DNA of 64,000 bases from Escherichia coli (GTDB lineage Bacteria; Pseudomonadota; Gammaproteobacteria; Enterobacterales; Enterobacteriaceae): the NCBI RefSeq assembly GCF_013122565.1, contig NZ_CP053258.1; one strand, 5' to 3'. Made by a program: the position numbers. Position 1 is the first letter of the stretch; each line of letters starts with the position of its first letter. Positions 20,801 through 23,800 of this stretch are shown here, one piece after another.

Positions 20801-23800
20801 GTTCATGGCCTGTCAGCGCCAGCGAGGATCTCGGTGCAGGTACGCATGTTGAAGTAATTGCGATAGAAGGGATAACGCTGATCATCCGTGCGGCCATCGC
20901 CTGATGCGACGCTGACGCGTCTTATCATGCCTACAAAATATGCCCGAATCGTAGGCCGGATAAGGCGTTTACGCAGCATCCGGCGGTTATGCACCGACGC
21001 CTTATGCGACGCGGGCGCGTCTTATCACGCCTACAAATCTGTGCCCGAATCGTAGGCCGGATAAGGCGCTTGCGCCGCATCCGGCATATAGCCGAGTATA
21101 GGCAAAATTACTCTTCCCGGCCTTTACTCATACTTTTTTGGTCTTCATCCGGATAGTGTTTTTTTAGATATTCCAGGACGTTTTTATTGACCTTGTGTTG
21201 CGTATACACCCACCCTTTCCAGTAATCAGGCTGGTCCAGGTAAACTTCTGGCGGAATGGTGAAATCAGAAAGCGTTAACCATTCGGCTAACAGATCGGGG
21301 TTTCGTTTCTGGATCAACTGCAACAGCATAATCAGCGACATGGCAGAGGCAGGAGCCGTACTATCGCCGCTTAAATACTTCCACACTGTCGACCGGTTCG
21401 AACGAAAAAGGATCGGTAGCAATGCCCGGTCCAGATTCATTTCATTAAAAATCTTCTCAAATTCATTCATTTAAATTTTCCTGCCTGGCGTAAACCTCTT
21501 AAAAATTGAGATTTATCAAAGAAACGCATTTTAGCACACATCAGGAACCGCTTCACGTTTAGTCCAGAAACAGAATTTATTTCGCTTATCAAAACAAGTC
21601 TTTACTCTTTTTTACATTGAAAGAGCACGAAATGATTTCCTTTTTTATTTATAAAAGAAACACTTTTTGTTTCTTATTGGTGGTGTTTACGCTTACACCA
21701 AACAAAAATGCGCTTTACATCACACAAATGGCGGCGTAGATTTCGATCAAATTGCAACGTAGTTTATTTCTTAAAACAATATTATTAGTTTCTTATAGAA
21801 ACATTAATGCGACTTATTTTGATCGAGAGAAAATGAATGAAAACTGTAAACGTAGCTTTACTGGCACTCATAATTTCAGCAACATCCAGCCCTGTTGTTT
21901 TAGCTGGTGATACCATTGAAGCGGCGGCAACAGAGCTTTCAGCCATTAACTCGGGCATGTCGCAATCGGAGATTGAGCAGAAGATTACCCGCTTTTTAGA
22001 ACGCACCGACAACAGCCCCGCTGCATATACCTATTTGACTGAACATCACTACATCCCTTCTGAAACACCTGATACCACTCAGACTCCCCCTGTCCAGACA
22101 GATCCTGACGCAGGACAAAAAACCGTTGCCGCTACAGGTGATGTACAGACAACCGCCCGTTATCAGAGCATGATCAACGCCCGACAGTCTGCGGTAACTG
22201 ATGCCCAGCAAACGCAAATTACAGAGCAACAGGCGCAGATCGTAGCCACACAAAAAACGCTCGCCGCGACTGGAGATACGCAAAATACTGCGCATTATCA
22301 GGAGATGATTAATGCCAGACTGGCGGCTCAAAATGAGGCTAATCAGCGCACTACCACGGAACAAGGGCAGAAAATGAATGCACTGACAACCGATGTGGCA
22401 GCACAACAGCAAAAAGAAAGGGCTCAATACGATAAACAAATGCAAAGTCTGGCGCAGAAGTCTGTCCAGGCACATGAGCAAATTGAAAGTCTGAGACAAG
22501 ATTCCGCACAAACGCAGCAACAGTTAACCAACACGCAAAAACGGGTCGCAGATAACAGCCAACAAATTAACACGCTCAATAACCATTTCGATTCTCTGAA
22601 AAACGAAGTTGAGGACAATCGTAAAGAAGCCAATGCGGGAACTGCATCTGCCATCGCTATCGCCTCACAACCACAGGTGAAAACCGGTGACTTGATGATG
22701 GTGTCAGCGGGAGCGGGAACGTTCAACGGTGAATCTGCGGTGTCTGTAGGAACATCTTTTAATGCCGGAACGCATACGGTACTTAAAGCAGGTATTTCTG
22801 CGGATACACAATCTGATTTCGGTGCGGGTGTCGGCGTGGGATATTCGTTCTAATTTTAACAGCAATTTCTTATTCGCAATTTTCCGCACATTATTTAAGG
22901 TTAACAATGATGAATAGCTCCATTAAATCGTTTTCCCTGCTGGCGGTTATATTACTGGCTGGCTGTAGTTCACCCACTTCCCGCATCGCAGATTGCCAGG
23001 CGCAGGGCGTCAGTCATGACACCTGTTATCTCGCAGAACAGCAGCGTCAGACGGCTATTTTAAGTGCATCCGAGGCGCAGGCATTTAAAAATGCAGAAGC
23101 CGCACAACATGCCCAGGCGGCAAAGAAAGCCATTTATAAAGGATTTGGCGTCACCTTCAGAATGAGCAGTAAGGACTTTGCTTATCTCAATGATTCATTA
23201 TGTGCCATAGATGAGGATAATGCCGATGCCACGGTTTATCAGTCGGGTCTGTATAACGTCATTGTTTATCATCACACAGGAAAAATCGCCTTAATGAAAG
23301 AAGGCCAGTTTGTGGGCTATTTAAAATGAAGGAGCAAAGGAAAATACCCCTGACGCACATTATGATTATCGGTGCGTTTATTTTTGCCTTCTTGCAAGTG
23401 GTGTTATTAGCCTCCCTGGTTCACGCTGTGAATGTTAACAACGAAATCCAGGAAGGCTTATTTCAGTCGGGGCGCATTATGGTAGAAAGTTTGCAGCATA
23501 TTCTTTCGGTGCAAACGGGGATTAATGGGTAAGGATACCGTTACCATTTCCAGAGCAATAGTCACCAGCGTAATTTTCTGGCACAGTTCAGGGTTCTGAA
23601 TATTCGGCTAAGGAGTGGCCATGCTTTTTCCCTTTCGAAAACCTGAAGTACGTCTGCTGAAAAATACCGCTGCGGGCGTCATTTTTTCGGTGAAGTCCGG
23701 TAAAGGATTTCTGCGTCAATGTGTGCTTTACGATCCGCACCCTTATGGGCTTATCCGTTCACTCTGCTGGCAGGATGTCCCGGTAATACGTTTCTGGTCC

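What the first reader, a model, noticed from the sequence alone, without database searches (positions are those of the whole stretch)
20905..21095. Tandem REP/BIME units mark the boundary between ybbJ and the accessory module
Two ~90-bp REP-containing units lie exactly at the junction between core sequence (the ybbJ stop) and the strain-variable module. REP clusters are known recombination and insulation sites and may mark the insertion boundary.
Basis: partly seen in the sequence, partly recalled or inferred. Interest (0 to 1): 0.15.

Follow-up and report, generated by a model that had tools for sequence, protein, structure and literature searches.

The report
Ordinary BIME-2 REP array after ybbJ
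The flagged stretch is a typical E. coli cluster of four repetitive extragenic palindromes (a two-unit BIME-2 array) at the left edge of a strain-variable segment between ybbJ and cueR; it is a well-known kind of repeat and is more likely a passenger than the cause of that variability.

Summary
Window 20899-21085 carries four REPs in alternating orientation (Z2>, Y<, Z2>, Y<). They form two tandem units of about 101 bp (not ~90 bp) that are 88% alike. This is a BIME-2 array, and its central Y-l-Z2 unit matches Rfam naRNA4 over its full length, 1 bit below threshold.

The array lies between the convergent genes ybbJ and a 120-aa ORF. The ybbJ stop codon sits inside the first REP.

Among 5,426 complete E. 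coli genomes:
- 3,205 have ybbJ abutting cueR, with no REP and no module.
- 1,403 have ybbJ-REP-module.
- 800 have ybbJ-(1.5 REP)-409-aa gene.

REP number at the locus ranges from 0 to 8 across Escherichia.

However, the array belongs to the variable segment. Homology with empty-site strains already ends at 20876/20877, inside ybbJ. The other module borders carry no REP. Other genera have different inserts at the same site without REPs. Two independent deletion variants end within about 10 nt of a REP, which is weak support for a role in recombination.

Verdict: an already known kind of element, of low interest.

The parts
20899..21085 (.). Whole BIME-2 array: Z2 - S - Y - l - Z2 - S - Y, as two tandem units of about 101 bp
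   Evidence: TRF reports period 101, 1.9 copies, 88% matches. Direct repeats are and REP scans. The array aligns at 85-86% over about 182-185 nt to BIME arrays at other loci (for example near yjjW) in other E. coli genomes (H87-H89).
20899..20934 (+). Z2-type REP no. 1 (iREP orientation, ends in CTAC). It contains the last Ala codon (GCC, 20899-20901) and the TGA stop (20902-20904) of ybbJ.
   Evidence: One mismatch to the Z2 consensus. As DNA it folds as a hairpin, -6.9 kcal/mol. The sequence was read directly.
20935..20950 (.). Tail-to-tail short linker, 16 nt (AAAATATGCCCGAATC)
   Evidence: Read. It lies between the CTAC of the Z2 REP and the GTAG of the Y REP.
20951..20984 (+). Y-type REP no. 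1 (5' GTAG on the + strand)
   Evidence: One to two mismatches to consensus. Hairpin of -9.5 kcal/mol with an internal mismatch loop.
20985..20998 (.). Head-to-head linker of the 'l' type, 14 nt
   Evidence: Aligned to the linker of Rfam naRNA4, which is the Y-l-Z2 unit of REP325.
20999..21034 (+). Z2-type REP no. 2, decayed (two mismatches in the foot of the stem)
   Evidence: Three to four mismatches to consensus. No hairpin better than shuffles when folded alone, z = 0.0.
21035..21051 (.). Tail-to-tail short linker, 17 nt
   Evidence: Read.
21052..21085 (+). Y-type REP no. 2 (5' GTAG on the + strand)
   Evidence: Two to three mismatches to consensus. Hairpin of -12.2 kcal/mol, z = -2.9.
20954..21031 (+). 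naRNA4-like unit (Y-l-Z2), full-length match to the Rfam model, just below threshold
   Evidence: RF02564: 58.5 bits against a gathering score of 59.5, E = 4e-10, model positions 1-77 of 77.
20877..20904 (+). Diverged 3' end of ybbJ (last 9 codons including the stop). It is linked to the REP array and module, and the true homology break with empty-site genomes is at 20876/20877.
   Evidence: Megablast alignments to K-12-type genomes stop at query position 177-192. Sequences were compared. There are 10 of 21 differences between the two haplotypes, and all REP-bearing Escherichia share the window type.
21086..21107 (.). Spacer between the last REP and the stop of the 120-aa ORF. The junction of the segment-1 indel (21093/21094) lies 8 nt after the REP.
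   Evidence: L009, L003 and L014 share ...GGCATATAGCC and then continue into the region upstream of the 409-aa ORF.
21108..23532 (.). Variable segment 1, a four-gene cassette: 120-aa ORF (-), 338-aa YadA-anchor autotransporter, 140-aa lipoprotein, 68-aa ORF
   Evidence: ORFs. Pfam YadA_anchor. RefSeq annotation of relatives. The cassette is absent in L009, L003 and L014.
23615..24844 (+). Variable segment 2: a 409-aa ORF with no family match. Its stop codon abuts the stop codon of cueR (24845-25252, - strand). No REP at this border.
   Evidence: The ORF is absent in O157:H7 and frameshifted or partly deleted in ST131.

Best explanation
What it is (shown): a two-unit BIME-2 array, that is, four REPs of types Z2 and Y in alternating orientation. 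It fills the short spacer between the convergent genes ybbJ and the 120-aa ORF. It belongs to an Escherichia-specific variable segment lying between ybbJ and cueR, two genes that abut each other in most other Enterobacteriaceae and in 59% of E. coli. Its unit number differs between strains.

How it came about (inferred):
- Once foreign genes had separated ybbJ from cueR, an extragenic spacer existed. A BIME-2 was seeded there, presumably through the REP-associated tyrosine transposase (RAYT/TnpA-REP). Its first REP now supplies the ybbJ stop codon.
- The array has since expanded and contracted by unequal recombination, slippage or TnpA-REP strand exchange.
- It marks the left edge because it occupies the only non-coding DNA next to ybbJ, not because it created the edge.

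Likely activities (inferred from the family, not tested here):
- The long Z2/Y hairpins in the shared 3' ends of the two convergent transcripts protect them from 3' exonucleases and attenuate read-through.
- The Y REPs are preferred gyrase sites.
- A REP at or within 15 nt of a stop codon can lower translation of the upstream gene, here ybbJ.
For: Identity:
- Four REPs match the Y and Z2 consensus, against 0 expected by chance.
- The tandem period is 101.
- There is a full-length Rfam naRNA4 (Y-l-Z2) match at 58.5 bits.
- Both strands fold into two long hairpins, z = -4.3 and -6.2.
- The definition of BIME-2, including copy-number variation between strains, is given in PMC3333891 and PMC1187871.

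Polymorphism:
- REP counts at this locus are 0, about 1.5, 2, 3, 4, 5 and 8.

Place in the variable segment:
- Genome counts are 3,205 empty, 1,403 REP+module and 800 REP+409-aa gene.
- 50 of 75 outgroup species have ybbJ and cueR 40 nt or less apart, with no REP.
- The K-12-type ybbJ end is closest to Salmonella: 5 of 21 differences, against 10 of 21 to the module type.

Passive marker rather than cause:
- No REP lies at the other three module or island borders.
- Citrobacter and others carry a different insert at the same site without REPs.

Activities of the family:
- Gyrase cleavage is enriched in BIME-2, mostly in Y REPs (PMC6379681).
- REPs within 15 nt of a stop codon lower translation (Liang 2015, as summarised in PMC12306157).
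Against: - No expression, 3'-end, gyrase or translation data exist for this locus, so all activities are extrapolated from the family.
- One of the four REPs is decayed.
- No intrinsic-terminator signal above chance was found.
- Two independent rearrangement junctions lie within about 10 nt of a REP. A second REP cluster in the window (12361-12458) also sits 11-14 nt from a homology break. Some active role in rearrangement therefore cannot be excluded.
- The origin of the diverged 28-nt ybbJ end is unexplained.
Confidence: 0.85

Rival explanations
1. Active boundary. The REP array is the recombination substrate that produced the module's insertion or its deletions, for example through gyrase- or TnpA-REP-made breaks at REPs, or through REP-targeted insertion. 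On this view it marks the border because it made it.
For: - The left junction of the segment-1 indel lies 8 nt after the last Y REP in 800 E. coli genomes and in E. albertii.
- In L015 a different deletion starts 8 nt after a Z2 REP and ends inside the lipoprotein gene.
- In the O157:H7 and L007 types the terminal Y REP is itself truncated.
- The BIME-1 at 12361-12458 also lies 11-14 nt from a homology break.
- TnpA-REP cleaves in and near BIMEs and recombines them in vitro (PMC3333891).
- BIMEs are enriched in strain-specific loops (PMC1187871).
Against: - The break with empty-site genomes lies 22 nt to the left of the array, inside ybbJ.
- The right border of the module and both borders of the neighbouring type I secretion island lack REPs.
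- The deletion in L012 has both ends away from REPs.
- Other genera have inserts at the same site without E. coli-type REPs.
- With only 22 nt of non-REP spacer on that side, any junction that spares both genes must fall next to a REP.
Confidence: 0.2
2. Functional nucleoid-associated RNA locus. The Y-l-Z2 unit, transcribed from the qmcA-ybbJ operon, acts like naRNA4 of REP325 and, together with HU, bridges REP cruciforms.
For: - There is a full-length match to Rfam naRNA4 on the + strand, the sense of ybbJ read-through. It scores 58.5 bits, against 34.8 bits on the - strand.
- naRNA4 is one Y-l-Z2 unit of a BIME-2 array that lies downstream of a gene (PMC4550694).
Against: - The score is below Rfam's gathering threshold.
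- The Rfam model is in effect a generic BIME-2 unit, so a match says little beyond family membership.
- 59% of E. coli lack the locus entirely.
- The Z2 half of the unit is the decayed REP.
Confidence: 0.07
3. Selected regulator of ybbJ. The REP that overlaps the stop codon was retained because it tunes YbbJ (NfeD) output relative to QmcA (SPFH), through ribosome stalling at the stop codon and 3'-end stabilisation.
For: - In every REP-bearing allele, across five Escherichia species-level groups, ybbJ ends ...ATC GCC TGA, with GCCTGA being the first six bases of the REP. This holds even where the rest of that REP is deleted, as in ST131 and E. albertii.
- REPs within 15 nt of a stop codon lower translation (Liang 2015, via PMC12306157).
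Against: - Conservation of GCCTGA is explained by the need for a stop codon alone.
- The majority allele of E. coli and all outgroups do without any REP.
- There are no expression data.
Confidence: 0.15
4. The region encodes small proteins (55-aa and 49-aa ORFs at 20888-21055, 20931-21080 and 20989-21156), or the repeat is a chance similarity.
For: These ORFs appear in the mechanical ORF list.
Against: - The ORFs run through REP palindromes and are not annotated in any of the RefSeq relatives examined.
- Unit number varies by whole BIME units, which would destroy the ORFs.
- No motif matches occurred in 100 shuffles.
Confidence: 0.01

Closest known systems
BIME-2 arrays of E. coli (for example REP325 between yjdM and yjdN, sucC-sucB, tldD-yhdP)
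   Same: - Y and Z2 REPs alternate in orientation.
- Short tail-to-tail linkers and an l-type head-to-head linker are present.
- The units are tandem.
- The array lies in the 3' region of a gene.
- Unit number differs between strains (PMC3333891, PMC1187871).
   Different: - There are only two units here, one REP is decayed, and the first REP overlaps the coding sequence by 6 nt.
- The locus is absent from K-12, so it is not in the classical K-12 BIME catalogue.
- It is not annotated as a repeat in the RefSeq records examined.
Rfam RF02564 naRNA4 (CssrE), the HU-associated RNA made from one Y-l-Z2 unit of REP325
   Same: Window 20954-21031 aligns to all 77 model positions with both hairpins.
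   Different: The score is 58.5 bits against a gathering score of 59.5. No evidence of an RNA product or of HU binding exists for this copy.
BIME-1 (Y + Z1 with a long L linker carrying an IHF site), such as the one at window 12361-12458
   Same: It is a REP pair in inverted orientation lying next to the stop codon of a core gene and next to a homology break between strains.
   Different: The flagged array has Z2 rather than Z1, short linkers, and more than one unit.
REPtron / TnpA-REP (RAYT, yafM) system
   Same: The REPs keep the GTAG/CTAC tetranucleotide and the imperfect stems that TnpA-REP needs. The sequence CGCC|TGAT at the ybbJ stop resembles the type I iREP cleavage site TGCC|TGAT (PMC3333891; sequence).
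   Different: No transposase gene lies in the window, and activity on this array is untested.

Membership tests
BIME-2 | Built from Y-type and Z2-type REPs | tested here: met
   There are two Z2 REPs (1 and 3-4 mismatches) and two Y REPs (1-3 mismatches) to consensus. The consensus was recalled from memory and then confirmed against the Rfam naRNA4 consensus.
BIME-2 | REP and iREP alternate in inverted orientation, giving tail-to-tail and head-to-head junctions | tested here: met
   The order is Z2> Y< Z2> Y<. Junctions of the form CTAC...GTAG span 16-17 nt, and the head-to-head junction spans 14 nt.
BIME-2 | Conserved GTAG tetranucleotide at the foot of an imperfect palindrome with internal mismatch | tested here: met
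   All four REPs keep GTAG or CTAC. Three of four fold as imperfect hairpins and the third REP is decayed.
BIME-2 | Occurs as tandem multiple copies | tested here: met
   1.9 copies of a 101-bp unit. Up to four units are seen in Escherichia sp. E1V33 (L013).
BIME-2 | Family-typical linkers (S between tails; s, l or r between heads) | tested here: inconclusive
   The head-to-head linker aligns to the l linker of naRNA4 with several differences. The whole array, linkers included, aligns at 85-86% to arrays at other loci (H87-H89). No reference S consensus was available for a direct comparison.
BIME-2 | Unit number at a locus is polymorphic between strains | tested here: met
   0 to 8 REPs were found at this locus in 15 loci examined. 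Span classes among 1,515 genomes are.
BIME-2 | Extragenic location | tested here: met
   The array lies between convergent genes. Only the first 6 nt overlap the end of ybbJ (last sense codon and stop).
BIME-2 | Bound and cleaved by DNA gyrase; recognised by TnpA-REP | not testable with these tools
   This is a property of the family (PMC6379681, PMC3333891). No data exist for this copy.
Rfam naRNA4 (RF02564) | Score at or above the curated gathering threshold (59.5 bits) | tested here: not met
   58.5 bits, full-length. It is therefore not filed as naRNA4, only as the same kind of BIME-2 unit.
BIME-1 | Z1 REP plus Y REP, a single copy, and a long L linker with an IHF site | tested here: not met
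   The REPs are the longer Z2 type, the linkers are 14-17 nt, and there are two units.

The most novel reading that the evidence does not exclude
The BIME-2 array may be an active agent rather than a passenger. On this reading, breaks or strand exchanges at its REPs repeatedly set the left end of gene-cassette gains and losses at the ybbJ-cueR hotspot across the genus Escherichia. Because the first REP carries the ybbJ stop codon, the filled and empty alleles would also differ in how much NfeD-family YbbJ is made relative to its SPFH partner QmcA.
Probability: 0.12. Interest if true: 0.3.

Novelty: already known. Interest (0 to 1): 0.1.

Why it matters
It matters little. REP/BIME-2 arrays, their strain-to-strain length polymorphism and their enrichment in variable 'loops' of the E. 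coli genome have been described since the 1990s.

The useful result is practical. The array, together with the linked 28-nt alternative ybbJ end, is a clean sequence marker for the filled versus empty state of the ybbJ-cueR site. That state splits sequenced E. coli 41% to 59%. The locus could also serve as a small natural test case for whether a REP overlapping a stop codon changes expression of the upstream gene.

Tried and rejected
- A fuzzy-regex REP scan timed out. It was replaced by a Hamming scan.
- The Liang et al. 2015 paper on REPs near stop codons is not held. Its claim is cited through PMC12306157.
- The promoter/terminator scan gave nothing above chance.
- Apart from naRNA4, Rfam gave no credible family.
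- I considered whether the K-12 state is a simple microhomology deletion of the module (GCCT...GCCT). I rejected this because the K-12 ybbJ end differs at 10 of 21 positions from the module type and is closest to Salmonella.
- I looked for E. coli genomes with REPs but no module, like L012. None were found in the complete-genome collection.
- I tested whether the 2.87-kb gap in Citrobacter is copA. It is not. It holds a 714-aa ORF plus a DUF3142 protein.
- Pfam, NCBIfam and PADLOC gave no function for the 120-aa, 140-aa, 68-aa and 409-aa proteins.
- The short ORFs across the REPs were rejected as coding.
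Full report
**What is in the sequence**

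Window 20899-21085 contains four repetitive extragenic palindromes:
- Z2-type at 20899-20934
- Y-type (inverted) at 20951-20984
- Z2-type at 20999-21034
- Y-type (inverted) at 21052-21085

No matches to either motif occurred in 100 dinucleotide-preserving shuffles of the window. Tandem Repeats Finder sees the same stretch as 1.9 copies of a 101-bp unit with 88% matches. The repeat finder gives two direct-repeat families spaced 100-101 nt apart.

Each unit is therefore one BIME, a pair of inverted REPs, and the units are about 100 bp rather than about 90 bp. Tail-to-tail linkers are 16 and 17 nt. The head-to-head linker is 14 nt.

Rfam's naRNA4 model is one Y-l-Z2 unit of the BIME-2 array REP325 (PMC4550694). 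It aligns over all 77 positions to 20954-21031 on the + strand, at 58.5 bits against a gathering score of 59.5. That alignment also confirmed the Y and Z2 consensus sequences I had first used from memory.

As RNA, either strand folds into two long Z2/Y hairpins, with z = -4.3 and -6.2 against shuffles. As single DNA hairpins, three of the four REPs fold. The third REP is decayed.

**Context**

The window is E. coli in the strict sense. Its flanking core genes are 98-98.8% identical to K-12 and O157:H7. The gene order is:
- fetA, then qmcA (19532-20449), then ybbJ (20446-20904)
- the REP array
- a 120-aa ORF on the - strand (21108-21470)
- a 338-aa protein with a YadA anchor (21837-22853)
- a 140-aa lipoprotein, a 68-aa ORF and a 409-aa ORF with no family match (23615-24844)
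- cueR on the - strand (24845-25252)
- a 25-kb type I secretion island with a 20.8-kb siiEA-like adhesin gene, followed by ybaT

The array thus fills the spacer between two convergent genes. The TGA stop of ybbJ (20902-20904) and the preceding Ala codon lie inside the first REP.

Among 5,426 complete E. coli genomes:
- 3,205 have the K-12 arrangement. The ybbJ stop codon directly abuts the cueR stop codon, with no REP and no module.
- 1,403 have ybbJ, then REPs, then the 120-aa ORF.
- 800 have ybbJ, then a truncated Z2 plus one Y, then the 409-aa gene.

These three classes account for 5,408 genomes. The full module as in the window occurs in only 162.

REP number at the locus varies widely:

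| REPs | Where seen |
|---|---|
| 0 | K-12 type |
| about 1.5 | ST131, L009, E. albertii |
| 2 | L006, L008, L011, L012 |
| 3 plus a fragment | O157:H7, L007 |
| 4 | window, L001 |
| 5 | L010, L015 |
| 8 | Escherichia sp. E1V33 |

A spread sample of 1,515 genomes suggests the window's own four-REP form is rare. The one-unit, three-REP and O157 forms each occur in hundreds of genomes. The strain closest to the window over the whole module (97.2%) has one unit fewer. The stated refutation, identical REP content in strains without the module, is therefore not met.

**Where the boundary really is**

Homology between the window and empty-site genomes ends at 20876/20877, 28 nt before the end of ybbJ.

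The last nine codons exist as two haplotypes that differ at 10 of 21 compared positions. Every REP-bearing Escherichia allele has the window type. This includes E. albertii, E. whittamii and two unnamed Escherichia species.

The K-12 type is closest to Salmonella arizonae, with 5 of 21 differences. In 50 of 75 other enterobacterial species, ybbJ and cueR lie 40 nt or less apart, with no REP and no module gene. The empty arrangement therefore looks ancestral for the family. The filled arrangement, with its own ybbJ end and the REP array, is a derived state that is widespread in the genus Escherichia. This polarity is an inference from outgroups. How both alleles persist in E. coli was not resolved.

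**The module is not one unit**

- O157:H7 and many others lack the 409-aa gene.
- ST131, L009 and E. albertii lack the four-gene cassette.
- L015 keeps only the end of the lipoprotein gene and the 68-aa ORF.
- L012 keeps two REPs and a remnant of the 120-aa ORF fused to the end of cueR.
- A related four-gene cassette lies upstream of qmcA in a Pseudocitrobacter genome.

**Does the array make the boundary?**

Evidence for:
- The cassette indel junction in the 800-genome class and in E. albertii lies 8 nt after the last Y REP.
- The L015 deletion starts 8 nt after a Z2 REP.
- In the O157 and L007 types the terminal Y REP is itself truncated.
- The only other REP cluster near a variable site in the window, a BIME-1 at 12361-12458, lies 11-14 nt from a homology break next to the ybbP stop.
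- TnpA-REP cleaves and recombines BIMEs in vitro (PMC3333891).
- BIMEs are enriched in strain-specific loops (PMC1187871).

Evidence against:
- The break with empty-site genomes lies to the left of the array, inside ybbJ.
- The right border of the module and both borders of the neighbouring secretion island carry no REP.
- L012's deletion ends are not at REPs.
- 23 of 75 other species carry a different insert (a 714-aa ORF plus a DUF3142 protein) at the same site, without E. coli-type REPs.
- Only 22 nt of non-REP spacer exist on the module side. Any junction that spares both genes must therefore fall next to a REP.

I rate the causal reading at about 0.2 and the passenger reading as the best explanation.

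**How it most likely works**

These points are inferred from the family and were not tested on this copy:
- The hairpins sit in the shared 3' region of two convergent transcripts, where REPs stabilise upstream mRNA and attenuate read-through (roles listed in PMC3333891).
- Y REPs in BIME-2 are preferred, transcription-independent gyrase cleavage sites (PMC6379681).
- REPs within 15 nt of a stop codon can lower translation of the upstream gene (Liang et al. 2015, as summarised in PMC12306157). Here the stop codon lies inside the REP.

No intrinsic-terminator or promoter signal above chance was found.

**Verdict**

This is an ordinary, unannotated BIME-2 array whose properties match what is already known for the family. 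It is not supported as a cause. Novelty: already known. Interest: 0.1.

Noticed in passing
window 20877-20904: The last nine codons of ybbJ exist as two deeply diverged haplotypes, differing at 10 of 21 nt. Upstream identity is about 98%. One haplotype is linked to the empty site and is Salmonella-like. The other is linked to the REP array and module and is shared by all Escherichia species sampled. How both persist in E. coli is unexplained.
   Followed up: partly
window 12361-12458 (and 12103-12258): A BIME-1 (Y + Z1) lies between a dinQ-like type I toxin gene and the ybbP stop codon. Homology with K-12-type genomes, which carry the rhsD island here, ends at 12469-12472, 11-14 nt from the REP. 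1,311 genomes share the window's arrangement.
   Followed up: partly
window 25249-50834: A type I secretion island lies directly beside cueR: HlyD adaptor, ABC permease/ATPase, a 20.8-kb siiEA/BapA-like adhesin gene with long internal repeats (self-matches at about 73%), and a TolC-like gene. K-12 and many other strains keep only a 98-nt HlyD remnant, so they are deletion derivatives. Neither border has a REP.
   Followed up: partly
window 21108-23532; L088 2307-4842; L069 1238-2537: The cassette of a 120-aa ORF, a YadA-anchor autotransporter, a lipoprotein and a 68-aa ORF recurs in a Pseudocitrobacter genome, and in part in Lelliottia, but upstream of qmcA rather than downstream of ybbJ. The autotransporter passenger is highly variable between strains (31-99% identity). 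The pairing of a small trimeric autotransporter with a lipoprotein is reminiscent of helper-lipoprotein systems, but this was not tested.
   Followed up: no
window 23615-24844: A 409-aa ORF has no Pfam, NCBIfam or PADLOC match, and its stop codon abuts the cueR stop codon. It is conserved at 77-91% in E. albertii, E. whittamii and other Escherichia, is frameshifted or internally deleted in ST131, and is absent in O157:H7.
   Followed up: partly
L017 6479-9309 (Citrobacter sp. FP75) and 22 other outgroup loci: A different two-gene insert (714 aa with no Pfam match, plus a DUF3142 protein) occupies the same ybbJ|cueR site in Citrobacter, Phytobacter, Kosakonia, Leclercia and others. The site is therefore an insertion hotspot across Enterobacteriaceae.
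   Followed up: partly
window 62973-63056: A third REP locus, a head-to-head Z2/Y pair, lies just downstream of ybaL. It was not examined for strain variation.
   Followed up: no
L012 (NZ_JAATUR010000024.1): This record is titled E. coli but is only 94.7% identical to the window in flanking core genes. It has two REPs and a remnant of the 120-aa ORF fused into the 3' end of cueR. No complete E. coli genome in the collection shares this junction.
   Followed up: partly
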